Origin: a virus
Strand: one strand, 5' to 3'
Virus genome (UHGV): UHGV-1430452
Length of the DNA: 64,000 bases
Shown here in pieces: positions 1,298 through 22,353 of the stretch; the stretch's first letter is position 1; each line of letters starts with the position of its first letter. The position numbers and the translations under genes were made by a program. A model generated the notes under the pieces. It saw nothing but the letters and a program-made list of their open reading frames with translations, searched no databases and was not told where the DNA came from.

Positions 1298-1322
1298 CAT
1301 TAAAGTAGATGTTTTTTACGCG
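1298..1322 (-). promoter_or_regulatory. Early-box copy 1
   Basis: Plus strand CATTAAAGTAGATGTTTTTTACGCG; 36 nt upstream of the start at 1262. Confidence 0.5.
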
Positions 1323-1580
1323 TTATTTCCTAATAAACTGTCCACATGATCCGCAATAATGATCATACTCAGCTGTAGGTATTGGTGCCTCGCATGTCGG
1401 ACATAATTTAAGAGATCCCTGGTCTGGATCGTCCGCCACTCGATATTTTAATTCACTAACTACTTCTGTAAAAAGATCGGCGTTAGGTCCACCGTTTTTA
1501 ATTTCCAAATCTCTAAGTTCTCTCATTCTATTTACAATATTGATTACTCTCTGATTTCTTTCTTCTAAATATTTTTTCAT
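1323..1580 (-). CDS. Hypothetical protein with C-terminal 4-Cys zinc-ribbon-like motif (85 aa)
   Basis: ORF track; CPTC...(12 aa)...CGSC near the C-terminus; charged helical N-terminus. Confidence 0.6.
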   Translation of the reverse strand: MKKYLEERNQRVINIVNRMRELRDLEIKNGGPNADLFTEVVSELKYRVADDPDQGSLKLCPTCEAPIPTAEYDHYCGSCGQFIRK

Positions 1581-1581
1581 C

Positions 1582-2196
1582 TTATTTCTCCTTTCTTACT
1601 ACCCTAGCTCTCTCAAAAATATAATTGTTAATATTATCAGGACCGTTACCATAGCGTTGTACATATGGCACTCCTAAAACATTTCTACCATTTACAAATC
1701 TATGTTCTCCGATCCCGATAACTTCGTGTTTCTCATATCGTCCACTACTATTCATAATGAACACAATATCACCGACTTTAATCTCATTTACTGGAGTTTC
1801 TACAGCATCTAGGAATTCTCCGAGCTGTTCTTTTAATGGTTGACGAATATCAATCTCTTTAAGGAATTCGTCTAGATCATAACCTTCATGATAGTCTTCA
1901 CCACCAACATGTCTAACAATATCCCAGTCTTTTACGACATAAATACCATTATCCAACCAGTAATCCTCGACTTCACTTTCCCTTACATCAGTCTCAATTC
2001 CGATAGATAAGTTTCCACCAAAGAAATTACCTACGACCTGACAGAATCTAGCCATACCGTAGGAATCATCAAATCCTCTATGCTCTTTTAACTCACAGTA
2101 TTTAAGAAATGCAGTAACGCTATCAATACCTCCATTCCAATGCAAATATACTCCGATGTCTTTTCCTTCTGGTTTTACGATAGCTCTGTTACCCAT
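1582..2196 (-). CDS. Hypothetical protein (204 aa)
   Basis: ORF track; TAGGAGCTGAC SD context; no family recognised. Confidence 0.65.
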   Translation of the reverse strand: MGNRAIVKPEGKDIGVYLHWNGGIDSVTAFLKYCELKEHRGFDDSYGMARFCQVVGNFFGGNLSIGIETDVRESEVEDYWLDNGIYVVKDWDIVRHVGGEDYHEGYDLDEFLKEIDIRQPLKEQLGEFLDAVETPVNEIKVGDIVFIMNSSGRYEKHEVIGIGEHRFVNGRNVLGVPYVQRYGNGPDNINNYIFERARVVRKEK

Positions 2197-2219
2197 GTTA
2201 AGTCAGCTCCTAAGTTGAT

Positions 2220-2420
2220 TTATTTTAAAATGCCTTTATGTCTACATAACTCTAGCAACATTTCATTCTCTTCTTGTAAAGCCTCTAATTTATCGGCAGC
2301 ATTCTTACAGTAAATATGAATCGCATTAGACATTTTATCCGTTTCATCCAACGGAACTTTCGTTAATGGAAACATATTTACAAGCCAACGTAGAGACTTA
2401 GCTTCTGGTACTTCTTTCAT
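2220..2420 (-). CDS. Hypothetical protein (66 aa)
   Basis: ORF track; GAAAGGAGAAACGA SD. Confidence 0.55.
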   Translation of the reverse strand: MKEVPEAKSLRWLVNMFPLTKVPLDETDKMSNAIHIYCKNAADKLEALQEENEMLLELCRHKGILK

Positions 2421-2451
2421 TCGTTTCTCCTTTCAAATATCAGCTCCTAAT

Positions 2452-2601
2452 TTAGTCTATCTTTACTATTTGTTCTATGCCGCCATCCCTAAGCTCACGA
2501 TTTACAACTTGTGCTCCGTAAATTTCAAAATAGTCTGATTCTACAATTTGCAAATCCTTTGGCAATTGTTCTAAAATATCGATAAGTTCACCTACTGTCA
2601 T
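2452..2601 (-). CDS. Small hypothetical protein (49 aa, MTVGELIDILEQLPKDLQIV...), below the ORF-track cutoff
   Basis: Hand translation; GAAAGGAGAAAC SD 4 nt upstream of the ATG at 2601. It fills an otherwise empty gap in a tightly packed operon. Confidence 0.5.
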   Translation of the reverse strand: MTVGELIDILEQLPKDLQIVESDYFEIYGAQVVNRELRDGGIEQIVKID

Positions 2602-2626
2602 TTAGTTTCTCCTTTCAAATATCAAC

Positions 2627-2977
2627 TCACAAATCCTCATAGCTATGAGCAATCAATGCGTAAATACTTTTATCTAAAACAAACGCATTATCGCCATCAT
2701 TTCCGAAACCGATTACTCTATGATTCTTCAAGTTGTCACCGTGGAATTTCGCATCAATACAACTTTCATCTTTGCTAGTCTGCATAACACAAAAAGTGAC
2801 ATAATTATCGTTAGGAAGTTTTATAGATATAGTGTTCATCCAGTCTTTAGATTTATGGTCCAAATGAGACATATCAACTGTATAGTGATTACATTTGTTG
2901 AATGTCGGATAACCTAATTTCTCAGCTTCCTCGATTGAACATTTAGTAAATATCAATTCTTTTTGTGTTGCTTCCAT
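2627..2977 (-). CDS. Hypothetical protein (116 aa)
   Basis: ORF track; TAGGGAGCTGAC SD context. Confidence 0.6.
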   Translation of the reverse strand: MEATQKELIFTKCSIEEAEKLGYPTFNKCNHYTVDMSHLDHKSKDWMNTISIKLPNDNYVTFCVMQTSKDESCIDAKFHGDNLKNHRVIGFGNDGDNAFVLDKSIYALIAHSYEDL

Positions 2978-3019
2978 TGTTGGTCAGCTCCCTAAGTTAG
3001 TTTTAATGCTTAACATTAA

Positions 3020-3061
3020 ATATAAAAAGAAGAAGCCCCAGCTAAATATAGCCAGAGCTTC
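3020..3061 (-). terminator. Intrinsic terminator after 3067..3321
   Basis: Minus strand GAAGCTCTGGCT-atattt-AGCTGGGGCTTC then TTCTTTTTAT. Confidence 0.6.
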
Positions 3062-3066
3062 ATACT

Positions 3067-3321
3067 TTACTTGCAATGAAATCCCATTACTACTTTTTCT
3101 TCAGATTCATTTTCCTTATTTTCTTCCGGTTCAACTTTGATTTTCGCTTTCTCGCATACCTCCTGTGCGATTTCGTTACCTTCTTTAGCAGCAAACTTCA
3201 ATGTACCAAGGCCGATACCTGTAATAACTGCCTGAGCCATTTCCGCTGCAAACTTACCCATAGCAACTCCAAATGACACTGCAAATGCTGCTTTGCGTAA
3301 ATCTTTAAATTGTCCATTCAT
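3067..3321 (-). CDS. Small Gly/Ala-rich hydrophobic-helix protein with charged tail (84 aa)
   Basis: ORF track; AAAGGAGGAAC SD; box copy 2 upstream and a terminator downstream. Confidence 0.6.
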   Translation of the reverse strand: MNGQFKDLRKAAFAVSFGVAMGKFAAEMAQAVITGIGLGTLKFAAKEGNEIAQEVCEKAKIKVEPEENKENESEEKVVMGFHCK

Positions 3322-3357
3322 TTTAAGTTCCTCCTTTAAGAAATATAGACTTCATTC

Positions 3358-3382
3358 CATTAAAGGCGATGTTTATGTCGCG
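3358..3382 (-). promoter_or_regulatory. Early-box copy 2
   Basis: Plus strand CATTAAAGGCGATGTTTATGTCGCG; upstream of 3067..3321. Confidence 0.55.
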
Positions 3383-3384
3383 TA

Positions 3385-3967: not shown

Positions 3968-4465
3968 TTACTCTTCCGGATGTTCCTCCGCTGCAAATCT
4001 GGATGAGAATCTGTCAATATCCTGAGTTACACACATTGACTGCAAATATGCTGCACGGAATGGTTTACCGTTAATCTCAGAATCATACGGTCTGATATCA
4101 AGATCGACACTTGCAATATCAATTTCGTCGAGCATGGATACTGTTTCTTCATCAAGTTTGACTCTATTTCTACCAGACTGAAGATATACAATAGGGCCTC
4201 TGTCGTTAAATTTGACTTTAACTGGAAGATAGATAAATGGTTCATCTCCATCTTCTCTTGGCGGTTTGATCTTTACATTCCATCCTGCTCCAAACTTATT
4301 TACATCATTCTGCAAAGCTTCTGCCATTTCTTCGTTAGGGATAATCAAAGCGAAGTTACGGTCTCCTTCTTTGTTGAATTTACCGCCTTCTCCTCTGAAG
4401 TTTCTGAAAATGATTCTTGCGTCATCGATCTGTAATACTCCTCTTGGTGCGAATGTTAATTCCAT
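3968..4465 (-). CDS. Putative ssDNA-binding protein (T7 gp2.5/DUF2815-style OB-fold; tentative)
   Basis: It has an acidic C-terminal tail (AAEEHPEE) and a beta-rich body, and sits next to the replicase. The family assignment is from memory only. Confidence 0.4.
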   Translation of the reverse strand: MELTFAPRGVLQIDDARIIFRNFRGEGGKFNKEGDRNFALIIPNEEMAEALQNDVNKFGAGWNVKIKPPREDGDEPFIYLPVKVKFNDRGPIVYLQSGRNRVKLDEETVSMLDEIDIASVDLDIRPYDSEINGKPFRAAYLQSMCVTQDIDRFSSRFAAEEHPEE

Positions 4466-4655: not shown

Positions 4656-4946
4656 CTATCGTAAAGATTTTGGGACAAGGCTTTTGATAATCTTTTTCTG
4701 ATGCTCGTCCAGATCGTGATATAGAGTGAAACCCGTTGCCCCATTATACTCATCGCCAAACTGTTTGTAGTACATAGATTGTTTCCATAACTCCGGATAC
4801 TCTTTTTTGTACTTTGCGAGTTCTTTTGCTTTCTTGTCATACTGTTTATCCGAAATTATATTATTATCTAACTCGTAATAAATATATGAATGAAGTATGA
4901 TATATCTTTGCAAGTAATCTATGTATTCGAGGGTTGTTAGTTCCAT
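4656..4946 (-). CDS. Stand-alone NAD-dependent DNA ligase domain-Ia-like protein (96 aa)
   Basis: LHSYIYYELDNNIISDKQYDKKAKELAKYKKEYPEL...FG follows the LigA N-terminal pattern H-x-Y-x-Y..D.P.IsD.eYD.L..EL..LE..yPEL....G. It overlaps the replicase stop by 10 nt. Confidence 0.5.
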   Translation of the reverse strand: MELTTLEYIDYLQRYIILHSYIYYELDNNIISDKQYDKKAKELAKYKKEYPELWKQSMYYKQFGDEYNGATGFTLYHDLDEHQKKIIKSLVPKSLR

Positions 4947-7900
4947 GGCAGCTCTACATCTTCATCATCGAATGGAATTTCCTCAGGAGATCCTTCCGGT
5001 ATGTTCATGAAGTCTGGTAAATGAGAATCTCTAAAAGGAGGTTCATGCCGATCTGAAGCATCCCAAGGCGGAGTACCAACATATGGATCGTCTGATATGA
5101 ACCACTCAGCGTCTCCGTATTGACCAATAGTTTCAAGAGCATCATCCACAAGCTTTCGATAATATGAACGATCAATATTTTCTTCATTTCCCGGAGACAT
5201 CATTAACTCGGATTCAAGCCAACGGAAACCAGTTGTTCCTGTAGCTGCATAATATTTACCGTTCTGTTCTCGCATCAATAGTCCTCCACCCTTTCCAGGC
5301 TTAACCGGACAAAATTGCCCAACTTTACCTACGAAATGATAGTCATGACCTTCAGCTATTAAATCGTTTAATCTTCGACACTCACTTTCGAAAGTTGTGT
5401 CCGATAACTTACCTTTCCTGTACTTATCTTCAAGTTTGGATAGTTCTTTTTCATACTCGGATACATCTGGAAGTTTTTCGTTCATATCCAAATATAAAGC
5501 AGATTTTACTGAGAATGCTTCGCACATATCTTTCAACTCAATTGGTTCTTTACTGAACAGTGTTTTAAATACATACGGAACTGCAAACTGTTTTCCAGTA
5601 GCTGTCCATTCTCCGGCATTCTTTCCATCTTTAAACCTAGCCACGTACACAGCATCATTTACTAAACAGAATTTTTCAAAGTTAGCCTCTGTTTCAAATG
5701 TATATCCGTATTCTTTACCGAATTTGGTTACGAAATCAATAATATCAGGAGTAGCATCGGGTATCTTTATGGAATCTGTCTTGATATGACAAACAGTAAA
5801 TCCTCGTTTCTGAACTTCTCTTTTCAATAATGTCATGAAGAGAGCTCCTCTTTTGGCAACAATGTTATCCTTATTTCTAGGATCTCTAAATTCATTTACG
5901 AAGCCAGCTGATGTCAAACCATAAATGGAATTGATAACAATCTTAAGTGCCTGCGCTAAATCAGCAGCCTGTTCTTCATTTAAGTATGGTTTCAACGCTC
6001 CACCTAATAATTGTCCAGCTGTTTCAAAGTCTTTATGCTTAATTGCAACACGAGCTTTTACAATATCCTCAAACCGTTTTGTATATTCTGGTCCAAATAG
6101 ACATTCGAATATAATACTGTGAGGATGCTGAGAAGCAATGTCTCCATCCCATACATTACCGTAATGCCCAGGTTCAGAGTAAACCCGACCGCCTTCTCCA
6201 ATGGCTTCGCCTAAATATGTTGATTTACCAAACTCAAAAGTATAGCCTTTAAAGAATGGAAGAATGCTATAACCTTCTGGAAGCTTTTCGCCAGGAACGT
6301 AAGATCGATATAATGGAAGACCCTCAGAATCAAATACTCTGAAATCATAATCATCTCCGAATTTAATTCTATATTCATCATAACGATCTGAGCTAACCGG
6401 TTCCGCCAAGTATCTATAGTTGAATACATTCTGCGGTTTTTTATTATTTCCAAATATAATTCTTTTAGAAAGAGTATTTGTCGTATCATTAACTGTAACG
6501 TTTGTAATATCATGTAAGAGTTTTACAAGATCAACCTGAATCTGTCTAGCAACAAAGTCTGCTTTTCTTGCATTGAATACAGCTTCCGTCGCAATGACAT
6601 CATTATCGCAATACTCAGCAACCTTTGCCCATAATTCTTCTGGAACTGGTTGATCCCAAGGAAGACCAAGCTCTTGATGATGAATACCCAGTTCAATCTC
6701 CCATTTCTTTAAACTCTGTTTCACAGTTGACATATCATATACATCAATGTAACCAAGATTATATGCCTCACCAAACATGCCATTATCACGGCTTCCCTTT
6801 GGAGCATTAATAATTCTTTGAGATAACTTATATATTTCCTCATTTGTGTATCCCATAAGTCTAGCATAAATGATATGTCTGTCGTATTTACGTCCATTAA
6901 AATCAACAAGTTTAAACTTTAGAAGATTTTCTATTTCTGCTGGTGTAGGATTAATTAATCTAACTACTGTTTTTCCTTCTCCAGCAAACTTATAGTTTAC
7001 CAAAAATAAATTTGGGAATACCTCACAATCATAGAATACAAGATCGTCAGTATCACCCTCATTACTTGTCTCTGAAGCCTCTTCACTCTTAAACGCCATC
7101 TGATTAACTAACTTCAAACACTCATCAGCCTGGTTACTACTACTCGCCGCCAAAGCAAATACAGCATTTTTCATATCAGACACATCATATCCAATACCAC
7201 TCTCATAAGCCTCATCCAAAAGTTTCTTAATCATTTGAATACTTGGAGCTGTGTTACCCATAATTTCTTTATTCAGATGTTTCTTAAGAACGGATCTCAA
7301 ATATTTCTCATTCTTAATACCATCAAAGTTAATCACATTTTTCACCTCTTTCAACGGAAGACCTGAGCTAATTGTACGAATAACAAGATTGACACACTTA
7401 GTAAGTTTTCTTCTAAGAGATGTTTTACCGGTAAATACCTTAATCTCGATATCCTCATCAAATATACGACTTAATTCACTCACATCACCGTTATAAATAT
7501 AATGAAGATGAATACCTCCACCACTTTTGCTTAACTCAGCATATGTTGGAGGCCATTTACTAGCTGCTTCAAGATTCTTCTCGAAACATTTATTACCATT
7601 CTCGTCCTTAATATCAAAGTCAATAACTACATGATTTTCAGGGACCTTGACGTAATGAAGTTTTGATGTGTCAAGTTCTGATAGGGTAGTTGAAACTTCA
7701 TCCCATGGCTTCGTCGGAGTTTCTTTTGAAGTAGCATATTGAGCTGGACAATCAGAACATTCTTTATCAAAAATAGACTCCTGTTCTTCAAATATAAGCC
7801 AGCTCTCAGTTTTCTCATCTCCAATAGGTTTCTCTGCTTTAACCTTTTTCTTCCCACCAATAGAGTCTTCGAAAATATCAGTCTTAAAACCGTCGTAATA

Positions 7901-14356: not shown

Positions 14357-14381
14357 CATAAAGCACTGTGTATTTTTCGCG
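14357..14381 (-). promoter_or_regulatory. Early-box copy 4
   Basis: Plus strand CATAAAGCACTGTGTATTTTTCGCG; upstream of 14012..14317. Confidence 0.5.
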
Positions 14382-14386
14382 TATGA

Positions 14387-15214
14387 TTAATAGTAGCTAT
14401 CGAAACCATATTCCGGAGGCATCAGATGATCAATAACAATACACGGTTCATTATCTTCCGTAATTTGAGCACTATATCTCACATCGATTTTGCCTTTATC
14501 GATTCTCCAACCGATGCTATTACCAACTTCGGTATGCTTAAGACCAATTTCGTCATAGAAATCATTCAGAGAAATATACATCTCGTTACCGTTGATCATT
14601 CTCTCATTAAGAGTAAGAACAGCATTTTTAATCTTGTCGATATCCGATCTGAAATATCTGTCGGAATGACTGTCATAACACAACGTGTTACCTTTACCTG
14701 TCATGATAATCTGAGTGTCTGCAACCGGATGTTCTTCAACTTGCTTCTTAGCGACTTTATCTCTGATGTTATTTTCCTTCTTCTCTCCGATAGTCTCTAC
14801 CACTTTCTCTCTGTAGTCAGACAGTGCTGTTGTAGATAACTGATATGCTGTTGCCAATGCTGCGTTACGTCTTACATGTACGGAATTAGCACCGATAAGA
14901 CAAGCGACTGACGCAATGCCAGTGATAGCTGCTGGAATATAAGGTTTCCAAGCTGCTTTTACTGTTTCGACAGGTGTGAGATTTAAAGCGTTTCTTTCGT
15001 CTTCTTCTGTGAAAATACCGCCTTCATGAGCTTCTTTCTCTTTAAACTTCTTCTCTTCCTCGATTAACTCCATAGCTTTTGGTGTTGCTTTTACTGCAAG
15101 CACAACAGTAGATATCATACCTGCGATACCAATGCCAGTAAGAATTTCCGGACTGCGTTTTTTCATTACATATTTTGCAGTGTTTAAAAATTTTGTTACA
15201 TTTGGTTTGTTCAT
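14387..15214 (-). CDS. Two-TM membrane protein, paralogue 2 of 3 (DUF6353-like)
   Basis: Alignable by eye along its length with 11374..12312 and 16675..17442. Confidence 0.6.
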   Translation of the reverse strand: MNKPNVTKFLNTAKYVMKKRSPEILTGIGIAGMISTVVLAVKATPKAMELIEEEKKFKEKEAHEGGIFTEEDERNALNLTPVETVKAAWKPYIPAAITGIASVACLIGANSVHVRRNAALATAYQLSTTALSDYREKVVETIGEKKENNIRDKVAKKQVEEHPVADTQIIMTGKGNTLCYDSHSDRYFRSDIDKIKNAVLTLNERMINGNEMYISLNDFYDEIGLKHTEVGNSIGWRIDKGKIDVRYSAQITEDNEPCIVIDHLMPPEYGFDSYY

Positions 15215-15262: not shown

Positions 15263-15303
15263 ACTCGGGAAAATTTTGATCTTGAAAAAATAGAAATCGA
15301 AAA

Positions 15304-15375
15304 GAAACAGTGTAGGACTCGAACCCACAACCTACAGATATAAGTCTGTTGCTCTACCAATTGAGCTAACTGTTT
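15304..15375 (-). tRNA. tRNA, probably Ile(UAU), with a 6-nt anticodon loop (72 nt)
   Basis: Hand fold: acceptor AAACAGT/ACTGTTT, D arm GCTC-AATTGGTA-GAGC, anticodon stem ACAGA/TCTGT with loop CTTATA, variable loop AGGTT, T arm GTGGG-TTCGAGT-CCTAC, discriminator C. Confidence 0.7.
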
Positions 15376-15380
15376 CTTCT

Positions 15381-16459: not shown

Positions 16460-16485
16460 CATTAAAGGCGTTGTTTATTTAGCGA
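16460..16485 (-). promoter_or_regulatory. Early-box copy 7 (AGCGA variant)
   Basis: Plus strand CATTAAAGGCGTTGTTTATTTAGCGA. It overlaps the stop of 16479..16661. Confidence 0.5.
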
Positions 16486-16661
16486 GTGTAATGGATATGC
16501 TCATTGTTTAATTCGTCGAGATGTTTAATAAAATCTAAATATCTTTTATTTCGTCTATTCTCCACAAAGTTTATAACTAACCAAGCAATCCCTACGATAG
16601 GCAAGCCAACGAATACTAATAGAAATAGTAAGCATGTAATCATAGAAACAAGCGTATTCAT
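16479..16661 (-). CDS. Small membrane protein (60 aa from the SD-supported start)
   Basis: ORF track 16479..16694. The ATG at 16661 has GAAAGGAG upstream. TM segment LLFLLVFVGLPIVGIAWLVI. Confidence 0.55.
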   Translation of the reverse strand: MNTLVSMITCLLFLLVFVGLPIVGIAWLVINFVENRRNKRYLDFIKHLDELNNEHIHYTR

Positions 16662-16674: not shown

Positions 16675-17442
16675 TCAATACTCTTCGTAATCAATGAACG
16701 GCTCTGTGAAATCTACAATATAACATTCAATACCGTCGTCCATTTCTACTTTTGTATGGTGGAAATATAGCCAACCATCCCAGTACATTTCATACATCTG
16801 AGCTGCGGACCAACCCATAAATTCACCGTAATCCTGTCGATCAATCTCTAGTAAATCGTAATAATCGTTTAAAGATGCACCACCGGATTGAGATAGCATT
16901 TTATTAATCTCATACTCTGCTCTCAATTGAGTTTCTTTCGTCACACGGTAATAACGTTTGGAATATTCATCGTAGAATAGTGTTTTGCCATCCTCGTATT
17001 CGTCGTCATATTCTTCTTTGTCTTCTTCCTCGTAATGGTCTTTTGCTACAGCAGCACGAATGAGTTTGTCTCCGTCTTCACCATATAACTTTTTAACTTT
17101 GTTTTTGTACTCTTTGTGAGTTTGGTCTAGTAAGGCATAAGCAGATGCGATGGCTGCTTGGGAATGTTTGTTTAATAGATTCGCGCCAAATATGCAAGCT
17201 AGGGTTCCTGTTCCAATCAATAAGGAAGGAATATATGTTGGTCCTGCTACTCGAATAGTCTCCCATTTTGTTAATTCATCTCCTTTCTCTTCTTCAGCTA
17301 GTTCAATAAGTTCCATTGCTTTCGGAGTAGCTTTAACCGCCATTACAGCTGTACCTACCACTCCGGCAGCTCCTAATACTGTTAATATAGTAGAGCTGTT
17401 TTTCTTTACGAATCTTTTCGAAACTGTTAGTAAGTCATTCAT
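16675..17442 (-). CDS. Two-TM membrane protein, paralogue 3 of 3 (DUF6353-like)
   Basis: ORF track 16675..17451; ATG at 17442 preferred over the GTG. It shares VKATPKAMELIE with paralogue 2. Confidence 0.6.
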   Translation of the reverse strand: MNDLLTVSKRFVKKNSSTILTVLGAAGVVGTAVMAVKATPKAMELIELAEEEKGDELTKWETIRVAGPTYIPSLLIGTGTLACIFGANLLNKHSQAAIASAYALLDQTHKEYKNKVKKLYGEDGDKLIRAAVAKDHYEEEDKEEYDDEYEDGKTLFYDEYSKRYYRVTKETQLRAEYEINKMLSQSGGASLNDYYDLLEIDRQDYGEFMGWSAAQMYEMYWDGWLYFHHTKVEMDDGIECYIVDFTEPFIDYEEY

Positions 17443-17472
17443 TTCCAGCACGCTCCTTGGCGATAAATTTGG

Positions 17473-17528
17473 TAAAAATAAAAAGAGAAAGAAAAGAGTC
17501 AGCTTGTTGTGTAAACCAAGTCTAACTC
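17473..17528 (-). terminator. Terminator-like hairpin + long U-rich run located downstream of box copy 8, in the leader of paralogue 3
   Basis: Minus strand GAGTTAGACTTG-gtttacacaa-CAAGCTGACTC then TTTTCTTTCTCTTTTTATTTTT. Confidence 0.45.
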
Positions 17529-17563
17529 AATTCTTTTTGTCATTATCCGAAATAACAATATCC

Positions 17564-17590
17564 CATAACAGGTGATGTAATTTTCGCGAA
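17564..17590 (-). promoter_or_regulatory. Early-box copy 8 (followed by a terminator-like hairpin)
   Basis: Plus strand CATAACAGGTGATGTAATTTTCGCGAA. Confidence 0.55.
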
Positions 17591-17593: not shown

Positions 17594-17815
17594 CTACTGC
17601 TCAAAAAATAAAACTACATCTACCGGATCTTTGAAGTGCTGCTCCTCCACTACTTCTTTAAATTCTTCAAATGATTCCGGTTCGTATTCTTGTAAATATA
17701 AAATCTGTTCAAGCAATCTTCCGTAAAATCCTTGAGAATTAGATAGCATTTTTACCACACCAATGACTTGTTCAACATCATAACCGTCTGCTTTCTTTTC
17801 CATAGCGTTTGCCAT
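17594..17815 (-). CDS. Hypothetical acidic protein (73 aa from the SD-supported start)
   Basis: ORF track 17594..17824. The ATG at 17815 sits in the recurrent GGAG..TTCAAAATG context. It is preceded by a ~170-nt GC-rich leader. Confidence 0.6.
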   Translation of the reverse strand: MANAMEKKADGYDVEQVIGVVKMLSNSQGFYGRLLEQILYLQEYEPESFEEFKEVVEEQHFKDPVDVVLFFEQ

Positions 17816-17993
17816 TTTGAACACTCCTTTAATTGGTTTTTGATAAAAATAAAAAGAGAATACAATGACTTCAGGGTCGGCCCAACGAAAACCGTTGCCC
17901 GGTGGGTAGCATGTTTTATTACGTTATTACGTGCCGCTACGCCTTCGTGTCTCACCACTGGATTTCCACCAGTATCTATCCATTGCTTTCTCT
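17816..17993 (-). ncRNA. Candidate structured 5' leader / cis-regulatory RNA (class unknown)
   Basis: This ~170-nt gap between box copy 9 and the start at 17815 is visibly GC-richer than its surroundings. Several helices can be drawn: CUGG/CCAG, GUAGC/GCUAC with GUGG/CCAC, ACGU/ACGU and CAACG/CGUUG. Confidence 0.35.
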
Positions 17994-18346: not shown

Positions 18347-18373
18347 CATAATAGGTGATGTAATTTTCGCGAA
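18347..18373 (-). promoter_or_regulatory. Early-box copy 10 (identical to copy 9)
   Basis: Plus strand CATAATAGGTGATGTAATTTTCGCGAA. Confidence 0.6.
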
Positions 18374-18572: not shown

Positions 18573-18599
18573 CATAATAGGACTTGTAATTTTCGCGAA
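18573..18599 (-). promoter_or_regulatory. Early-box copy 11
   Basis: Plus strand CATAATAGGACTTGTAATTTTCGCGAA. Confidence 0.6.
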
Positions 18600-19078: not shown

Positions 19079-19103
19079 CACAATAGGAGAAGTTTTTATC
19101 GCG
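19079..19103 (-). promoter_or_regulatory. Early-box copy 13
   Basis: Plus strand CACAATAGGAGAAGTTTTTATCGCG. Confidence 0.5.
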
Positions 19104-19123
19104 TGCATTATCAGTTCCTTCAA

Positions 19124-19319: not shown

Positions 19320-19347
19320 CTATAATAGAAGAGGTTTAAATCGCGCG
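19320..19347 (-). promoter_or_regulatory. Early-box copy 14
   Basis: Plus strand CTATAATAGAAGAGGTTTAAATCGCGCG. It overlaps the stop of 19336..19695. Confidence 0.5.
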
Positions 19348-19695
19348 TCTATCGAAGCAAGTTTCCCATCGTTCTCGCTTAACTGGCTTCATTTTCATAG
19401 TCCACATCATTTGTCGGACCGTTACGGTGGGATATAAACCGTTCTCAGGTTCTCCCGATCTATCCTCGAAGAACTCCAGGAATCTTTCATGTAAATATAA
19501 AGTGTCTGTCAGCCACGGATCAATCTCGCCCCACCAGGTATTTTTCGTCGCTGGATCATATCGCTGCTGAATAACAGCTAGTCCTTTTCGTCCCATTTTG
19601 AATAAAGTACATTTACTGTAAACTGGATGATCACATTCATAAGTTTCTCCGTACATCGATACATAAACTTTTGGCTTTTCGTAGTGATAACGCAT
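19336..19695 (-). CDS. Hypothetical protein (119 aa)
   Basis: ORF track; AAAGGATAATAGTAAT SD-like region; box copy 15 upstream. Confidence 0.6.
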   Translation of the reverse strand: MRYHYEKPKVYVSMYGETYECDHPVYSKCTLFKMGRKGLAVIQQRYDPATKNTWWGEIDPWLTDTLYLHERFLEFFEDRSGEPENGLYPTVTVRQMMWTMKMKPVKRERWETCFDRRAI

Positions 19696-19723: not shown

Positions 19724-19751
19724 TTATATAACTTTTGTTTAAACTCTCGCG
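19724..19751 (-). promoter_or_regulatory. Early-box copy 15 (divergent)
   Basis: Plus strand TTATATAACTTTTGTTTAAACTCTCGCG; between the tRNA-like element and 19336..19695. Confidence 0.4.
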
Positions 19752-19791
19752 TTAGGAAATATAAAAGAAGAAAAAAAAAGAAAAGACTATG

Positions 19792-19868
19792 GGAATAGCG
19801 CGGGATTCGAACCCACGACGTTGAGTTTCCTCTTATTCTTCCATTAGAACTAACCGTCTTAACTATTC
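19792..19868 (-). tRNA. tRNA-like element with canonical acceptor + T arm but a non-canonical body (77 nt; isotype undetermined, possibly a pseudo-tRNA)
   Basis: Acceptor GAATAGT/GCTATTC; T arm GTGGG-TTCGAAT-CCCGC. The 45-nt interior cannot be folded into D + anticodon arms. It pairs instead as GACGGTTAGTT/AACTCAACGTC around a purine-rich 20-nt loop. Confidence 0.5.
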
Positions 19869-19917: not shown

Positions 19918-19945
19918 CTATAATAGGAAATGTTTATTTAGCGAA
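19918..19945 (-). promoter_or_regulatory. Early-box copy 16 (upstream of the tRNA-like element, ~45-nt leader)
   Basis: Plus strand CTATAATAGGAAATGTTTATTTAGCGAA. Confidence 0.5.
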
Positions 19946-19977
19946 AGAAAATAGCCCAGGCGTTTAACCCGAGCTAA
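19944..19977 (-). terminator. Intrinsic terminator after 19989..20357
   Basis: Minus strand TAGCTCGGG-ttaaacg-CCTGGGCTA then TTTTCTTTC. Confidence 0.6.
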
Positions 19978-19988
19978 TTCTCTTAAAC

Positions 19989-20357: not shown

Positions 20358-20384
20358 ATCAATAACCTCCTATAAGTTTATTCT

Positions 20385-20411
20385 CATAACAGGCGTTGTA
20401 ATAATAGCGAA
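20385..20411 (-). promoter_or_regulatory. Early-box copy 17
   Basis: Plus strand CATAACAGGCGTTGTAATAATAGCGAA. Confidence 0.5.
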
Positions 20412-20447
20412 AAAGAAGAGCCTAAGTCATTTCGACTCAAGCCCTTC
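20409..20447 (-). terminator. Intrinsic terminator after 20458..20841
   Basis: Minus strand GAAGGGCTTGAGTC-gaaat-GACTTAGGCTCTTC then TTTTTCGC. Confidence 0.65.
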
Positions 20448-20457
20448 CATTTTGAAA

Positions 20458-20841: not shown

Positions 20842-20868
20842 TTTGAACTCCTCCTTATATTCGTATTT

Positions 20869-20894
20869 CATAATAGGGAATGTTATTTTTGCGA
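20869..20894 (-). promoter_or_regulatory. Early-box copy 18
   Basis: Plus strand CATAATAGGGAATGTTATTTTTGCGA. It overlaps the stop of 20883..21092. Confidence 0.5.
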
Positions 20895-21092
20895 CAGATC
20901 TACTCTAAGCATTACGTGTTTATCTTTTCGTAGCTTATATGCCTTACCACTATCTATTTCTAAAAATAAATACGGTGCTGAGTCTGGATCTGAGCTGTCT
21001 ACTTTCAGTGTGCCGATTGGCTTTTTTACTAAGAGTGTCGTTGCCACAACTGCACCTATCAGCATACCTACTAATAAAAATAAAAGTTCCAC
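20883..21092 (-). CDS. Small N-terminally anchored protein (69 aa, GTG start)
   Basis: ORF track 20883..21158. The GTG at 21092 has AGGAGGA 6 nt upstream. The GTG at 21158 has no SD. Confidence 0.5.
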   Translation of the reverse strand: MELLFLLVGMLIGAVVATTLLVKKPIGTLKVDSSDPDSAPYLFLEIDSGKAYKLRKDKHVMLRVDLSQK

Positions 21093-21113
21093 TACGCTAC
21101 TTCCTCCTTTCTT

Positions 21114-21136
21114 CAATAGAATTGTTTTATCGAAAA
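21114..21136 (-). promoter_or_regulatory. Early-box copy 19 (degenerate, TCGA instead of TCGCGA)
   Basis: Plus strand CAATAGAATTGTTTTATCGAAAA. Confidence 0.3.
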
Positions 21137-21235
21137 CTCCCTCCCGGGAAATTTTCACTTTAGAATTTTAATATTGTTTCCTGTCACCTATGTACGGAAT
21201 ATCTATTCTAGATTAGAGTTTGTTTTAATCTAGGT

Positions 21236-21262
21236 TAAAGAAAAAAGAGAGCCTAAGCCCTC
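21236..21262 (-). terminator. Intrinsic terminator overlapping the stop of 21253..21489
   Basis: Minus strand GAGGGC-ttag-GCTCTC then TTTTTTCTTT. Confidence 0.5.
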
Positions 21263-21489
21263 TTATCTGTCATAAAACTTGGTAACTGAAGTTCTGGTTT
21301 ATAAGTCATTAACTCTGCTTCATATAGCCTCATGATAATAGCTATCTCATCTTCATGAATACTTTTTATCAACTTAAAGACTTTATCATAATCAACATCT
21401 GATTTATTCTTCATTTGACAAATATAATCCACGAGTCTGGTATACTTATCATCCGCAGTTCCTATCATTGCCGCAAATTTAACTTCCAT
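21253..21489 (-). CDS. Hypothetical protein (78 aa)
   Basis: ORF track; TAAGGAGGATAAATT SD; box copy 20 upstream and a terminator downstream. Confidence 0.6.
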   Translation of the reverse strand: MEVKFAAMIGTADDKYTRLVDYICQMKNKSDVDYDKVFKLIKSIHEDEIAIIMRLYEAELMTYKPELQLPSFMTDKRA

Positions 21490-21523
21490 AATTTATCCTC
21501 CTTAAATTTAAAGTTTTATGTTT

Positions 21524-21551
21524 CTATAAAGTAGTATGTATTTTTGGCGAA
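21524..21551 (-). promoter_or_regulatory. Early-box copy 20 (GGCGAA variant)
   Basis: Plus strand CTATAAAGTAGTATGTATTTTTGGCGAA. Confidence 0.45.
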
Positions 21552-21585
21552 AAAGAAAAGAAGAGACCGATTAGGCCTCCTCTTT
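21549..21585 (-). terminator. Intrinsic terminator after 21571..21771
   Basis: Minus strand AGAGGAGGCC-taatc-GGTCTCTTCT then TTTCTTTTTC. Confidence 0.6.
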
Positions 21586-21771
21586 AAATAACTCAGGGTA
21601 TTTCTCCATCAGTTCTTTTCTGTCTCGTTCAATGTCTTTTTCTATATGCTCGATTTCTGCTTCCAATTTACCTGTGCTTTTACCTAAACGGTAACCCAGA
21701 TAAGATCCTACAGCATAAACCAATCCGGCATATAAACCAAAACCTAAACCAGCTTTTAAATTAGCTTTCAT
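21571..21771 (-). CDS. Mini-protein, Gly-rich hydrophobic helix + charged coiled tail (66 aa; YtxH-like appearance)
   Basis: ORF track; TAGGAGTGATC SD; box copy 21 upstream and a terminator downstream. Confidence 0.6.
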   Translation of the reverse strand: MKANLKAGLGFGLYAGLVYAVGSYLGYRLGKSTGKLEAEIEHIEKDIERDRKELMEKYPELFKEEA

Positions 21772-21797
21772 GATAGATCACTCCTATAATTTATTCT

Positions 21798-21823
21798 CAT
21801 AATAGGCGTTGTTTTAGTCGCGA
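21798..21823 (-). promoter_or_regulatory. Early-box copy 21
   Basis: Plus strand CATAATAGGCGTTGTTTTAGTCGCGA. The TCGCGA lies in the last codons of 21814..22002. Confidence 0.55.
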
Positions 21824-22002
21824 TCATCAAACGGTACTTCTATGTTTTCAATCTCGTCAGAAATAATCTCCCCGTCACCGATAAGTAGTTCTCTTTTGTT
21901 TATTTGATTAACGCTAGTTCGATATATACCCTCAGCTACTGCTAGTCCGATAAATGTACTTACTCCCCAAAGAATTCCTTTGATTAATTTATTAGTATCC
22001 AT
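21814..22002 (-). CDS. Small membrane-anchored acidic protein (62 aa from the SD-supported start)
   Basis: ORF track 21814..22062. The ATG at 22002 follows GAGAGGAAAATTCAAA. The longer frame would run through the upstream terminator hairpin. Confidence 0.55.
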   Translation of the reverse strand: MDTNKLIKGILWGVSTFIGLAVAEGIYRTSVNQINKRELLIGDGEIISDEIENIEVPFDDRD

Positions 22003-22037
22003 TTTGAATTTTCCTCTCATGATATATTCTCTATTGG

Positions 22038-22070
22038 AAATCAAAAGGAAGAGTATCTGCATAGATACCC
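22038..22070 (-). terminator. Intrinsic terminator after 22083..22298
   Basis: Minus strand GGGTATCT-atgc-AGATACTC then TTCCTTTTGATTT. Confidence 0.55.
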
Positions 22071-22082
22071 GCCTTTTTGTTT

Positions 22083-22298
22083 TTAATTATTGCTTGTGGT
22101 CCAACCCATGTTGTTCTGTGTGAATGAGTTGTTAATGCCGTTGATAGTTCTTACTCTATCCTCGTACAATGAATTGTCGCTAATGATGCTAACTCCGAAT
22201 TTCCATTTGAAGTCTGGAATTTCGTTAGCTGCTTTCATAGCTTCATCCCATTTCTCAAGGAAGACTTCTATCGCATATCCTCTCTCTACACTATCCAT
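22083..22298 (-). CDS. Hypothetical protein (71 aa)
   Basis: ORF track; AAAGGAGGGTAACGAC SD; box copy 22 upstream. Confidence 0.6.
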   Translation of the reverse strand: MDSVERGYAIEVFLEKWDEAMKAANEIPDFKWKFGVSIISDNSLYEDRVRTINGINNSFTQNNMGWTTSNN

Positions 22299-22325
22299 GT
22301 CGTTACCCTCCTTTATAATAATTTT

Positions 22326-22353
22326 CTATAAAGGAGCGTGTAATTTTCGCGAA
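22326..22353 (-). promoter_or_regulatory. Early-box copy 22
   Basis: Plus strand CTATAAAGGAGCGTGTAATTTTCGCGAA; the first copy downstream of the regulator gene. Confidence 0.55.

What the first reader, a model, noticed from the sequence alone, without database searches (positions are those of the whole stretch)
1298..22353. About 22 copies of a fixed-register box (minus strand TTCGCGAAAATTACA-N4-CCTATTATG) in front of early genes and both tRNA-type genes
By eye I find 22 intergenic copies, all in the same orientation as the genes. They share invariant spacing: on the plus strand, C(A/T)TAA(T/A)AGG at positions 1-9, TGT at 13-15 and CGCG at 22-25. Three copies (17564, 17994, 18347) are identical or differ by one base. 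Each box ends 20-35 nt upstream of an SD/start. In copy 5 the TATTAT ends 6 nt before the mature 5' end of the tRNA. The box combines a -10-like TATTAT with the perfect palindrome TTCGCGAA (TCGCGA core), and there is no TTGACA-like hexamer at 16-18 bp. It therefore does not look like an ordinary sigma-A promoter. It looks more like a phage-specific promoter class or a regulator/antiterminator loading site. I saw no full copy in the 27-64 kb structural half. Only a partial TTCGCGATAGTATAAAGG sits in front of the repressor gene. The sigma/RinA-like gene at 22402..22821, transcribed early from the cro promoter (third after cro and a hand-called 56-aa ORF), is the obvious candidate cognate factor.
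Basis: partly seen in the sequence, partly recalled or inferred. Interest (0 to 1): 0.8.

Follow-up and report, generated by a model that had tools for sequence, protein, structure and literature searches.

The report
Conserved phage-specific promoter box family
About twenty copies of a 30-base box before the early genes of this gut phage are almost certainly promoters of a class shared by phages of Clostridia, Lactococcus and Actinobacteria, which all carry the same putative phage RNA polymerase gene; that polymerase, not the neighbouring 139-aa protein, is the likeliest reader.

Summary
A weight-matrix scan finds 20 boxes (27-45 bits), all on the minus strand, all between 1298 and 22353, and nothing else above 8 bits in 64 kb. 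One more degenerate copy lies at 19724-19751.

Three details need correcting:
- The spacing is N3, not N4.
- The TCGCGA palindrome is not conserved; only CGC is.
- The TATTAT is not a sigma-70 -10 hexamer. tRNA-like genes and Shine-Dalgarno sequences begin 1-7 nt after it, so the RNA 5' end lies at the conserved purine right after TTAT.

The box (T-CGC-rAAAAwwACA-N4-CTwTTAT|G-rAA) recurs, strand-pure, in hundreds of Clostridia prophages and in Faecalibacterium phage FP_oengus. A recognisable form occurs in Lactococcus phage 1706 and in Arthrobacter and Gordonia phages.

All these phages share a 900-1050-aa protein with a GADFDGD motif and a sigma-4-like C-terminal HTH, a putative single-chain RNA polymerase. 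Its operon is the last box-driven unit, and late genes have no box.

The 139-aa protein has a sigma-4-like fold, but it can be separated from the boxes in both directions.

Best reading: a promoter class specific to this phage group, probably read by the phage polymerase. Which polymerase reads it remains unproven, and I found no description of the box in the literature.

The parts
22327..22353 (-). Box 1 (TTCGCGAAAATTACACGCTCCTTTATA). It is the first box and lies 49 nt after the orf139 stop codon.
   Evidence: PWM 32.7 bits; sequence seen.
21798..21824 (-). Box 2
   Evidence: PWM 38.2 bits. The ATG is 27 nt after the last base of the box.
21525..21551 (-). Box 3, directly after a terminator
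   Evidence: PWM 27.6 bits. Terminator at 21585-21557.
20869..20895 (-). Box 4
   Evidence: PWM 32.3 bits
20385..20411 (-). Box 5, directly after a terminator
   Evidence: PWM 35.0 bits. Terminator at 20448-20414.
19919..19945 (-). Box 6. It is followed by a leader of about 60 nt and then a tRNA-like element with a T-arm (GGTTCGAATCC) and an acceptor stem.
   Evidence: PWM 36.1 bits; sequence. Not called by ARAGORN or Rfam.
19724..19751 (-). Degenerate box-like copy with altered spacing, in front of gene 19336-19695
   Evidence: Relaxed regular-expression hit. Below the PWM threshold.
19321..19347 (-). Box 7. The SD starts 4 nt after the box and the ATG is 17 nt after it.
   Evidence: PWM 27.8 bits.
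19079..19105 (-). Box 8
   Evidence: PWM 34.8 bits
18886..18912 (-). Box 9, after a terminator
   Evidence: PWM 36.3 bits. Terminator at 18945-18923.
18573..18599 (-). Box 10 (consensus copy)
   Evidence: PWM 43.0 bits. Terminator at 18631-18610.
18347..18373 (-). Box 11 (consensus copy)
   Evidence: PWM 44.9 bits
17994..18020 (-). Box 12. It is followed by a non-coding stretch of about 130 nt before gene 17594-17824.
   Evidence: PWM 41.6 bits; sequence.
17564..17590 (-). Box 13. It is followed by a non-coding leader of about 110 nt before the DUF6353 gene 16675-17451.
   Evidence: PWM 37.8 bits.
16460..16486 (-). Box 14
   Evidence: PWM 39.8 bits
15647..15673 (-). Box 15
   Evidence: PWM 36.7 bits
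15381..15407 (-). Box 16, immediately in front of the tRNA-like gene
   Evidence: PWM 39.0 bits. A terminator at 15453-15430 lies upstream of it.
15303..15376 (-). tRNA-like gene with an aberrant anticodon loop. It starts 5-6 nt after the last base of the box and is followed by the DUF6353 gene 14387-15214.
   Evidence: ARAGORN; Rfam tRNA, 62 bits. The same box-to-tRNA-like arrangement occurs in about 45 distinct relatives.
14357..14383 (-). Box 17
   Evidence: PWM 28.8 bits
4624..4650 (-). Box 18, in front of the ssDNA-binding protein gene 3968-4465
   Evidence: PWM 37.3 bits; Pfam hit.
3358..3384 (-). Box 19
   Evidence: PWM 38.6 bits
1298..1324 (-). Box 20
   Evidence: PWM 30.0 bits
22402..22821 (-). 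orf139. It is a conserved 139-aa protein of PHROG 11237 with no Pfam family and a sigma region-4-like C-terminal domain. It is the third gene of the repressor-controlled rightward operon.
23218..23247 (-). Canonical sigma-A-type promoter (TTGACA-N16/18-GATATT/TATTCT) for cro, orf57 and orf139
   Evidence: A conserved TTAACA-N17-TAGAAT lies at the equivalent place in at least 15 related prophages.
22051..22070 (-). First intrinsic terminator-like hairpin, after the gene that follows box 1. It would stop host-polymerase read-through coming from the cro promoter.
63940..64000 (-). Downstream part (TTCTCCGGCGGGAT...) of a conserved G-rich hairpin element. In relatives this element lies 280-430 nt after the putative RNA polymerase gene. 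Both the polymerase gene and the hairpin lie just outside the window.

Best explanation
**What the box is.** The boxes are promoters of a phage-specific class. Each box, with the SD-led gene (or tRNA-like RNA) after it and an intrinsic terminator at the end, forms a small transcription unit. Transcription starts at the conserved purine (G in 98% of family copies) immediately after TTAT. On that numbering the box runs from about -26 to +4:
- T at -26
- CGC at -24 to -22
- an A/T-rich stretch at -21 to -15
- ACA at -14 to -12
- CT at -7 and -6
- TTAT at -4 to -1
- G-R-A-A at +1 to +4

**Why it is probably not a host promoter.** This layout does not fit a sigma-70-type promoter. It resembles promoters of phage-encoded polymerases, such as T7-type TATA|G, phiKZ late T(-3)ATG(+1) and AR9 AACA-N6-T(A/G)(+1).

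**Who reads it.** The box is shared by a large group of siphoviruses of Clostridia, Lactococcus and Actinobacteria. Their common denominator is a 900-1050-aa protein with a GADFDGD metal-binding motif and a conserved sigma-4-like C-terminal helix-turn-helix. I infer that this putative single-chain phage RNA polymerase reads the box, with its HTH contacting the CGC...ACA part.

**The cascade.** The polymerase operon is itself the last box-driven unit. The late genes have no box and follow a separate G-rich hairpin element.

**Role of orf139.** In the temperate Clostridial members, orf139 is made by host polymerase from the repressor-controlled sigma-A promoter. It is most likely the switch that starts the cascade on induction. 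How it does so (adaptor for host polymerase, or antiterminator) is unknown.

**Shown:** the box, its placement, its conservation, its co-occurrence with the polymerase-like gene, and the limit on where the RNA 5' end can lie.

**Inferred:** promoter function, the exact start site, which polymerase reads the box, and the role of orf139.
For: **The box in the window and its relatives**
- 20 strand-pure copies in the window.
- 78 of 80 Clostridia prophage loci carry 3-17 boxes, always on the strand of the early genes.
- The box pattern is found in more than 119 IMG/VR contigs, strand-pure in each locus.
- 30 unrelated gut-phage loci of 21 kb each have none.

**Placement**
- 34-36% of 888 distinct boxes are directly preceded by a hairpin plus T-tract, against 1-3% of controls.
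- Terminator-like sites are enriched in the early region: 20 found against 5.1 expected, and 25 against 7.6 in FP_oengus.

**Limit on the 5' end**
- GGAGG starts at the conserved G in about 25 boxes. The start codon lies 13-19 nt from it in about 160.
- tRNA-like acceptor stems start 3-7 nt after the hexamer in about 45 distinct loci, mostly 4-5 nt. Most of these boxes are themselves preceded by terminator-like hairpins with a T-tract.
- In phage 1706 the full SD AGAAAGAAGG starts right after the hexamer.

**Conservation across lineages**
- FP_oengus: about 14 boxes.
- Arthrobacter phage Circum: 9 boxes, TCGCGTAAATTACA-N4-sTATAAT.
- Lactococcus 1706: 11 boxes.
- Gordonia Chikenjars: at least 7 boxes, TCGCAnAAATTACA-N4-CCTATAATGAGA.
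- All are strand-pure.

**Link to the polymerase-like gene**
- 46 of 46 IMG/VR loci have a box 875-1376 nt upstream of the gene. Only one has a box in the sequence held downstream (10 kb in about two-thirds of the loci).
- The same arrangement occurs in FP_oengus and Circum.
- The window's own lineage has the gene about 950 nt upstream of the homolog of window gene 63003-63446.
- GADFDGD is invariant. There is a weak PF05183 hit and a C-terminal Sigma70_r4_2 hit.
- The C-terminal HTH is conserved across all four lineages.

**Published parallels**
- phiKZ and AR9 promoter geometry: PMC7598289.
- The YonO promoter and any cofactors are still unknown: PMC5467207.
Against: - **Bootstrapping.** The polymerase operon is itself behind a box, in the window's relatives and in the lytic phage Circum. 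In the lytic phages every early gene examined is box-driven. A polymerase that reads the box would therefore have to be delivered with the virion, or be made first by host polymerase. I found no evidence of virion delivery. In the 1706 record several products are named 'structural protein', but orf75 is not one of them.
- **The hexamer looks like a host -10 element.** It is a perfect sigma-A -10 consensus (TATAAT) in 9 of 9 Circum boxes and in the Chikenjars boxes, and TATAGT in 1706. This argues for host sigma-A involvement at least in those phages.
- **The polymerase assignment is weak.**
  - It rests on one motif, a sub-threshold Pfam hit (E = 0.004) and GenBank names.
  - hhalign against YonO gave nothing.
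  - PDB sequence search found only the HTH.
  - The AlphaFold model was poor (pLDDT 52.9).
  - The fold search on that model did not finish.
- **The only characterised relative in kind behaves differently.** YonO of SPbeta transcribes late genes from a single start site (PMC5467207). SPbeta has no box (best PWM hit 11.6 bits).
- **No transcript data** were available for any of these phages.
Confidence: 0.45

Rival explanations
1. Host RNA polymerase with its primary sigma factor reads the box.
- The hexamer (TATAAT / TATAGT / TwTTAT) is a true -10 element.
- The conserved CGC...ACA part replaces the -35 element. It is contacted by a conserved part of the host enzyme, or by a conserved phage regulator, for example for later shut-off.
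- The phage polymerase transcribes only the late genes, as YonO does in SPbeta.
- A dual-use variant is possible: host polymerase fires weakly from the boxes to make the first phage polymerase, which then takes over at the same boxes.
- In temperate members the -10 is weakened (A at -11 in only 45% of copies), so the boxes stay silent in lysogens.
For: - A perfect TATAAT sits in the same register in all 9 Circum boxes and in the Chikenjars boxes; 1706 has TATAGT.
- In these lytic phages the first early genes are box-driven and no extra factor is evident, which is simplest if the host enzyme starts them.
- The polymerase operon being the last box-driven unit fits a cascade of host polymerase first and phage polymerase late.
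- YonO provides a precedent for a late-only phage polymerase.
Against: - A start 6-8 nt after the hexamer would fall inside the acceptor stems of most box-linked tRNA-like genes. It would also remove or truncate the SD in about 20% of boxes.
- There is no -35 and no TG extension, yet 1706 and the Clostridial phages infect Firmicutes, where such promoters are normally weak (my own knowledge of Firmicute promoters).
- A at -11 is present in only 45% of 392 family boxes.
- This reading does not explain why 14 upstream bases are held constant in phages of two bacterial phyla.
- About 20 host-readable promoters would be hard to keep silent in a prophage.
Confidence: 0.25
2. The 139-aa protein is the cognate factor, acting as a sigma-like subunit or a MotA-like activator. 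It directs host RNA polymerase to the boxes, which makes them middle promoters.
For: - orf139 is the only conserved gene of the immediate-early operon. It lies between a sigma-A-type promoter and the first box.
- It has a sigma region-4-like fold.
- 78 of 80 prophage loci with orf139 carry boxes on the same strand.
- It would solve the bootstrapping problem on induction, because the first terminator (22070-22051) ends the cro operon.
Against: - Recognisably the same box occurs in Lactococcus 1706, Arthrobacter Circum and Gordonia Chikenjars. 1706 and Circum gave no HMM hit (best E = 0.03-0.23), and tblastn found homologs in only 4 of 50,697 phage records.
- A 40%-identical family member sits between terL and portal of a phage that has no box.
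- The protein has no region-2-like domain that could melt DNA. Only about 70 residues match sigma region 4.
- The start-site geometry does not fit a sigma-70-type holoenzyme.
Confidence: 0.15
3. The box acts in RNA, not DNA. It would be a processing site at which long transcripts are cut just before the conserved G, producing monocistronic mRNAs and tRNA-like precursors.
For: - The inferred 5' end at the conserved G is equally compatible with cleavage.
- The box is always on the transcribed strand.
Against: - A third of the boxes sit directly after hairpin-plus-T-tract terminators, which would end any upstream transcript.
- The box has no conserved self-complementarity.
- The most conserved part lies upstream of the putative cut and would be lost from the downstream product.
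- The reading needs an unexplained antitermination system.
Confidence: 0.05

Closest known systems
Promoters of phage-encoded non-canonical RNA polymerases: phiKZ non-virion polymerase late promoters T(-3)ATG(+1), and AR9 late promoters A(-11)ACA-N6-T(A/G)(+1)
   Same: - The conserved bases run right up to and include the start site.
- The box has TATG, with G as the inferred +1, and an upstream ACA.
- There is no -35/-10 layout.
- The promoters are specific to the phage and are found before many genes (review PMC7598289).
   Different: - Those polymerases are multisubunit enzymes of jumbo phages. Here the candidate is a single chain of about 1000 aa in 55-90 kb siphoviruses, some of them temperate.
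- The box is much longer (about 30 bp), and the spacing between ACA and the start is 10 nt rather than 6.
- No start site has been mapped here.
T7 / T3 / SP6 single-subunit polymerase promoters (-17 to +6, TATA|G start, purine-rich initial transcript)
   Same: - One contiguous conserved block of 25-30 bp.
- An A/T-rich upstream part, a specificity part, then a TATA-like melting segment directly before a G start and a purine-rich +2 to +6. The T7 promoter details are from my own knowledge.
   Different: - No T7-like (Pol A-type) polymerase is present. The only polymerase-like genes found are a primase/PolB-like fusion and the GADFDGD protein.
- The box genes include the earliest genes.
YonO of Bacillus prophage SPbeta (single-chain two-barrel RNA polymerase)
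   Same: - A phage- or prophage-encoded single chain of about 100 kDa with a DxDGD-type motif.
- It lies upstream of the late genes in a temperate siphovirus of Firmicutes.
- Its promoter and cofactors are explicitly unknown (PMC5467207).
   Different: - No detectable sequence relationship (hhalign probability 0.2%).
- YonO has no match to any NCBIfam model, including the sigma-70 models that hit the C-terminal HTH of the gp55 family.
- SPbeta has no box.
- YonO uses one late start site, not about 20 early ones.
T4 middle promoters (MotA box at -30 plus a sigma-70 -10 element; MotA/AsiA sigma appropriation), and phiEco32 gp36 or SPO1 gp28 phage sigma factors
   Same: - A phage-specific promoter class lacking a -35 element, with a conserved element near -30.
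- It is switched on by a small phage protein made from an early host-type promoter. The T4, SPO1 and phiEco32 promoter details are from my own knowledge; the phiEco32 gp36 structure (9m7y) appeared in the fold search (PMC12276001).
   Different: - Those promoters keep the normal distance from the -10 element to the start site. Here the start must lie 1-3 nt after the hexamer.
- The candidate factor orf139 is absent from three box-bearing lineages.
Promoter-early stem-loop cassettes of T4-type phages, and the 'moron' arrangement (promoter, gene, terminator)
   Same: - Many small genes are each bracketed by a repeated promoter-like box and a terminator hairpin. The hairpins themselves form a repeat family in FP_oengus.
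- This could favour gene shuffling. The comparison is from my own knowledge.
   Different: - Those are host sigma-70 promoters.
- The box here is conserved across phages of two phyla rather than within one phage group.
Stoperators of cluster A mycobacteriophages
   Same: About 20-30 asymmetric sites in short intergenic gaps, all in one orientation relative to transcription (my own knowledge).
   Different: - Stoperators are repressor sites tied to immunity and differ between immunity groups.
- This box is constant across phages with different repressors and in lytic phages with none annotated.
- It is coupled to RNA 5' ends and follows terminators.

Membership tests
Sigma-70 (sigma-A) type bacterial promoter | A -35 hexamer (TTGACA-like) 16-18 bp upstream of the -10 hexamer | tested here: not met
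   No conservation at -35 in a logo of 392 distinct boxes. None of the box copies was picked up as a good match by the consensus scan.
Sigma-70 (sigma-A) type bacterial promoter | A -10 hexamer with A at -11 and T at -7 | tested here: inconclusive
   T at -7 is present in 99% of copies, but A at -11 in only 45% of Clostridial-phage boxes. The hexamer is a perfect TATAAT in Circum and Chikenjars and TATAGT in 1706.
Sigma-70 (sigma-A) type bacterial promoter | Transcription start 6-8 nt downstream of the -10 hexamer | tested here: not met
   This is indirect evidence. tRNA-like acceptor stems begin 3-7 nt after the hexamer, mostly 4-5 nt, and an SD can begin at the next base. No start site has been mapped experimentally.
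RinA / DUF1492 family of late activators (membership of orf139) | Sequence or profile similarity to RinA (PF07374) | tested here: not met
   No Pfam hit at E <= 10 in 39 members. hhalign against 80alpha RinA gave probability 0.2%. There are only weak fold-level hits to DUF1492 proteins in BFVD, with E > 0.6.
RinA / DUF1492 family of late activators (membership of orf139) | Gene placed just upstream of the small terminase gene, controlling one late promoter | tested here: not met
   In the window and in 80 prophages the gene heads the early operon.
Sigma factors (membership of orf139) | Region-4-like helix-turn-helix domain | tested here: met
Sigma factors (membership of orf139) | Region-2 domain that binds core polymerase and melts the -10 element | tested here: not met
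   Only about 60-75 residues align to sigma factors. The N-terminal 60 aa form two short helices. No sigma Pfam or NCBIfam hit.
Two-barrel (YonO / RdRP-like) single-chain RNA polymerases (membership of the gp55-family protein) | Invariant DxDGD metal-binding loop | tested here: met
   GADFDGD is invariant in all 17 aligned members.
Two-barrel (YonO / RdRP-like) single-chain RNA polymerases (membership of the gp55-family protein) | Detectable homology or fold similarity to YonO, QDE-1-type RdRPs or the crAss gp66 polymerase | tested here: inconclusive
   - PF05183 hit at E = 0.004, below the family cut-off.
- hhalign against YonO was negative.
- PDB sequence search found only the HTH.
- The AlphaFold model is poor (pLDDT 52.9).
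Two-barrel (YonO / RdRP-like) single-chain RNA polymerases (membership of the gp55-family protein) | DNA-dependent RNA synthesis | not testable with these tools
   This needs purified protein.
Phage-polymerase-specific promoter (membership of the box) | Co-occurrence of the motif with the polymerase gene across divergent phages | tested here: met
   - Clostridial phages: 46 of 46 loci.
- FP_oengus, 1706, Circum, Chikenjars.
- Absent from 30 unrelated gut-phage loci, from SPbeta and from MT835477.
Phage-polymerase-specific promoter (membership of the box) | Initiation by the phage enzyme at the motif | not testable with these tools
   This needs in vitro transcription, or rifampicin-resistant start sites mapped in vivo.

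The most novel reading that the evidence does not exclude
The box would be the first defined promoter for a widespread, so far uncharacterised class of single-chain phage RNA polymerases.
- The enzyme has a GADFDGD catalytic loop and a built-in sigma-4-like HTH.
- It is annotated today mostly as 'HTH DNA-binding protein' in hundreds of actinobacteriophage, Lactococcus and gut Clostridia phage genomes.
- It would recognise a promoter of about 30 bp by itself and start at the G of TTAT|G.
- In lytic members it would have to enter the cell with the DNA. In temperate members orf139 would be a dedicated induction switch.
Probability: 0.3. Interest if true: 0.9.

Novelty: new variant of a known kind. 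Interest (0 to 1): 0.74.

Why it matters
- **The open question.** If the box is the promoter of the GADFDGD/HTH protein, it supplies what is missing for single-chain two-barrel phage polymerases. The YonO paper states that the promoter sequence and the need for cofactors are unknown (PMC5467207).
- **Testable now.** Here there is a 30-bp consensus, hundreds of natural variants, and three culturable systems: L. lactis with 1706, Arthrobacter with Circum, and F. prausnitzii with FP_oengus.
- **Re-annotation.** A protein named only 'helix-turn-helix DNA-binding protein' in about 250 GenBank phage genomes and thousands of gut prophages would be re-annotated as a polymerase. The early gene units of these phages could also be predicted from sequence alone.
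- **Tool potential.** A compact, self-contained polymerase-promoter pair that works in Firmicutes and Actinobacteria would be a useful expression tool.
- **If host polymerase reads the box instead.** A promoter architecture held constant in phages of two bacterial phyla, with an upstream element of unknown reader, would still be unusual.

Tried and rejected
**Checks on the observation**
- The pattern as given in the title (N4 spacing) finds nothing even with 3 mismatches. The spacing is N3.
- A palindrome-binding dimer at TCGCGA is rejected, because position 10 is A in 57% of family copies.

**Searches for a polymerase**
- No polymerase gene lies inside the window. The structural module is ordinary: terminase, portal, capsid-protease fusion, a 2515-aa tape measure protein, tail fibres and lysin.
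- The 1408-aa protein is a D5-type primase/helicase fused to a PolB-like domain.

**Tests on orf139 and its neighbours**
- The small ORF upstream of orf139 is not an obligate partner (a split sigma factor). It is not conserved: a 57-aa protein in the window lineage, and an unrelated 83-aa protein in most prophages.
- orf139 is not related to the polymerase's HTH (hhalign negative).
- orf139 is not related to RinA.

**Other dead ends**
- The SPbeta region from yonO to yonK shows no box. I could not place the published YonO start site on the record, so its promoter could not be compared.
- Rfam finds only the one tRNA in the early region.
- The extended pairing between the leader and the 3' end of the tRNA-like genes was examined. 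It is uninformative, because purine-rich leaders pair trivially with the U-tract.
- Literature searches for the box, for orf139, or for a described promoter of this polymerase family found nothing relevant.

Full report
**1. The observation**

The pattern in the title matches none, because the spacer is N3 and not N4. A mismatch-tolerant scan followed by an iterated weight matrix gives 20 copies at 27-45 bits. All are on the minus strand and all lie between 1292 and 22358. No other site in the 64 kb scores above 8 bits on either strand, and shuffled sequence gives fewer than one hit above 10 bits.

A relaxed regular expression adds one degenerate copy at 19724-19751. A contig that overlaps the left end of the window shows a further copy 4.9 kb beyond it.

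The minus-strand consensus is wTCGCGAmAAAwwACA-nnnn-CTwTwAT-G/A-rAA. TTCGCGAA occurs in 6 of 20 copies. The hexamer is TATTAT in 9, TTTAAT in 5, TTTATA in 3, TGTTAT in 2 and TATTGT in 1.

**2. Setting**

The window is a temperate siphovirus of a Bacillota host; its genes have strong AAGGAGG ribosome-binding sites. Its landmarks are:
- a serine integrase and a CI-like repressor on the plus strand
- a canonical TTGACA-type promoter at 23247-23218 driving cro, a 57-aa ORF and orf139 on the minus strand
- the box-studded early region, which includes a primase/PolB-like fusion and three DUF6353 genes
- an ordinary head-tail-lysis module without boxes

Terminator-like hairpins are enriched in the early region (20 against 5.1 expected), and many abut a box.

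**3. The box is a family feature, not a peculiarity of this phage**

- orf139 has about 7900 homologs.
- 80 prophage loci were fetched from Lachnospiraceae, Oscillospiraceae, Hungatella, Enterocloster, Blautia and others. Of these, 78 carry 3-17 boxes each, always on the gene strand.
- A logo of 392 distinct boxes has these conserved positions: T5, C7-G8-C9, R10, A-rich 11-17, C18-A19, C24-T25, T27-T28-A29-T30, G31 (98%) and R-A-A. Nothing is conserved further upstream except a T-rich tract.
- Thirty 21-kb loci of unrelated gut phages have no box.
- Across 888 distinct boxes, 34-36% are directly preceded by a hairpin plus T-tract, against 1-3% of control positions.

**4. Where the RNA must start**

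- In about 160 of 885 distinct boxes the start codon lies 13-19 nt after G31. In about 25, GGAGG begins at G31 itself.
- In about 45 distinct loci a tRNA-like gene follows the box. Its acceptor stem begins 3-7 nt after the last T of the hexamer, mostly 4-5 nt. Most of these boxes are themselves preceded by terminator-like hairpins with a T-tract, so no upstream transcript can supply the RNA.
- In Lactococcus phage 1706 the complete SD AGAAAGAAGG begins right after the hexamer.

A start 6-8 nt after the hexamer, as for sigma-70-type promoters, would cut into these elements. The 5' end is therefore at about position 31, and the box spans roughly -26 to +4. This is an inference from sequence, not a mapped start site.

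**5. orf139**

There is no Pfam, NCBIfam or PDB sequence match, and no profile similarity to RinA. The protein has no region-2-like domain.

It is the only conserved gene of the immediate-early operon. In many prophages it is preceded by a conserved TTAACA-N17-TAGAAT promoter.

**6. The turn: a polymerase-like gene just outside the window**

Faecalibacterium phage FP_oengus has these features:
- an orf139 homolog, gp03
- about 14 boxes, from position 2310 (directly after gp03) to 27708
- three DUF6353 genes and the same primase-polymerase
- a last box that precedes endonuclease, exonuclease and gp55

gp55 is a 924-aa protein annotated as an RNA polymerase. It has an invariant GADFDGD motif, a weak RdRP Pfam hit and a C-terminal Sigma70_r4_2 HTH. 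The late genes have no box.

In 46 of 46 IMG/VR loci with a gp55 homolog, a box lies 875-1376 nt upstream of the gene (mostly 875-950 nt). Only one locus has a box in the sequence held downstream, which is 10 kb in about two-thirds of them.

The contig with a 99%-identical orf139 carries the gene about 950 nt upstream of the homolog of window gene 63003-63446. The right edge of the window falls about 60 nt after a conserved G-rich hairpin element that follows the polymerase gene in many relatives.

**7. Wider distribution**

The gp55 family occurs in 250 GenBank phage records from Arthrobacter, Gordonia, Streptomyces, Microbacterium and the Lactococcus 1706 group. In the genomes read in full it always sits at the end of the early region.

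Three genomes were read in full, and all carry recognisably the same box, strand-pure, before their early genes:

| Phage | Copies | Box form |
|---|---|---|
| Arthrobacter Circum | 9 (one before the polymerase operon) | TCGCGTAAATTACA-N4-sTATAAT-rrA |
| Lactococcus 1706 | 11 | sCACAwGTTTTACA-N4-CTATAGTAGAAAG |
| Gordonia Chikenjars | at least 7 | TCGCAnAAATTACA-N4-CCTATAATGAGA |

1706 and Circum gave no orf139 hit by HMM search, and none of the three phages appears among the 4 phage records in which tblastn finds a homolog. Conversely, a 40%-identical orf139 family member lies between terL and portal of a gut phage that has no box and no gp55. orf139 and the box can therefore be separated in both directions. 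The box and the polymerase-like gene were never found apart.

The C-terminal HTH of the polymerase-like protein is conserved across all four lineages.

**8. Interpretation**

That the box is a promoter is well supported. It lies between terminators and genes, it is strand-pure, it is coupled to RNA 5' ends, and it is conserved.

Which enzyme reads it is not settled. I favour the phage protein (0.45) for three reasons:
- The start-site geometry is not sigma-70-like. It matches the TATG(+1)-type promoters of phiKZ and AR9 polymerases (PMC7598289).
- Fourteen upstream bases are constant in phages of two bacterial phyla, which points to a phage-encoded reader.
- The polymerase-like protein, with its built-in HTH, is the one conserved candidate.

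The main objections are these:
- Bootstrapping: the polymerase operon is itself box-driven, also in a lytic phage.
- The hexamer is a consensus TATAAT in the actinobacteriophages.
- The polymerase assignment is weak. There is no detectable similarity to YonO, the structure model is poor, and the fold search did not finish.

Host sigma-A reading or dual use (0.25), host polymerase plus orf139 (0.15) and RNA processing (0.05) remain as rivals.

In the temperate members orf139 most likely links the repressor-controlled promoter to the start of the cascade. Its mechanism is unknown.

**9. Novelty**

Searches of the held literature found no description of the box, of orf139, or of a promoter for this polymerase family. 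The YonO paper states that its promoter and cofactors are unknown. I class the finding as a new variant of a known kind, namely phage-specific promoters. It has a clear experimental route in culturable systems.

Noticed in passing
window 15303-15376 (-); also about 19780-19860 (-); relatives: - A module of box, tRNA-like RNA and DUF6353 gene recurs in about 45 distinct relatives.
- The tRNA-like genes have good acceptor, D and T arms. Their anticodon loops are aberrant: ARAGORN- or 4-base 'anticodons', and some are called as suppressor or SeC types.
- The window has three DUF6353 paralogs (14387-15214, 16675-17451, 11374-12312). Two of them follow a box-led non-coding leader.
   Followed up: partly
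window 17455-17560 and 17860-17990 (-): Two box-led non-coding stretches of about 110 and 130 nt have similar T-rich 3' ends (ttctctttttatttttaYCAAA) and lie before protein genes. They may be small RNAs or regulatory leaders. Rfam finds nothing there.
   Followed up: partly
just beyond window position 64000; L429 9340-9430; window 63940-64000 (-) holds its tail: - A conserved element, ggTATAGGGGGGG-hairpin-CCCCC..ATCGCGGCGG, lies 280-430 nt after the polymerase-like gene in at least 15 relatives.
- It sits ahead of the box-less late genes.
- It is a candidate late promoter or leader, and it also has a TATA|G-type junction.
   Followed up: partly
L272 27708-27766, and the equivalent regions in the 37 representative polymerase loci examined: The transcript from the last box, in front of the endonuclease-exonuclease-polymerase operon, begins with a purine-rich run (GAAGAGAGAGGA...). 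This run can pair with a downstream TCCTCTCTTTT to form a hairpin plus T-tract. It may be an attenuator that delays polymerase expression.
   Followed up: no
L513 35962-36375 (MT835477.1): An orf139 family member (PHROG 11237, 40% identity) lies between the large terminase and portal genes of an unrelated gut phage that has no boxes. The family therefore has at least two genomic contexts.
   Followed up: partly
window 25657-26362: The end of the lysis/structural module adjoins the integrase gene. The window is therefore in the circular (replicative or virion-permuted) arrangement rather than the integrated one, and attP should lie in this gap.
   Followed up: no
window 52967-54904 (-) and 4937-9163 (-): Three features are shared by the window, FP_oengus, Lactococcus 1706 and the Arthrobacter cluster AM and Gordonia phages: a capsid-protease fusion gene, a 1300-1400-aa primase/helicase-PolB-like fusion, and the endonuclease-exonuclease-polymerase module. 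This points to one large, cross-phylum group of siphoviruses.
   Followed up: partly
L272 2448-8703 (FP_oengus): The terminator hairpins between box units are themselves a repeat family (GGAGCTTACGAGAAATCGTAGGCTCT TTTT). Terminator plus box forms a repeated cassette that could promote gene shuffling.
   Followed up: no
L429 17116; also L445 15068, L450 12248, L456 11127 and 11255: In the closest relative (contig IMGVR_UViG_3300045988_061906) and in a few others, a full box occurs inside the otherwise box-less late region. This may mark an inserted moron-like gene.
   Followed up: no
L080 8638-9659; L036 9307; L013 9160: In some prophages one to five boxes lie upstream of orf139 itself. orf139 may therefore also be under box control there, giving positive feedback.
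   Followed up: partly
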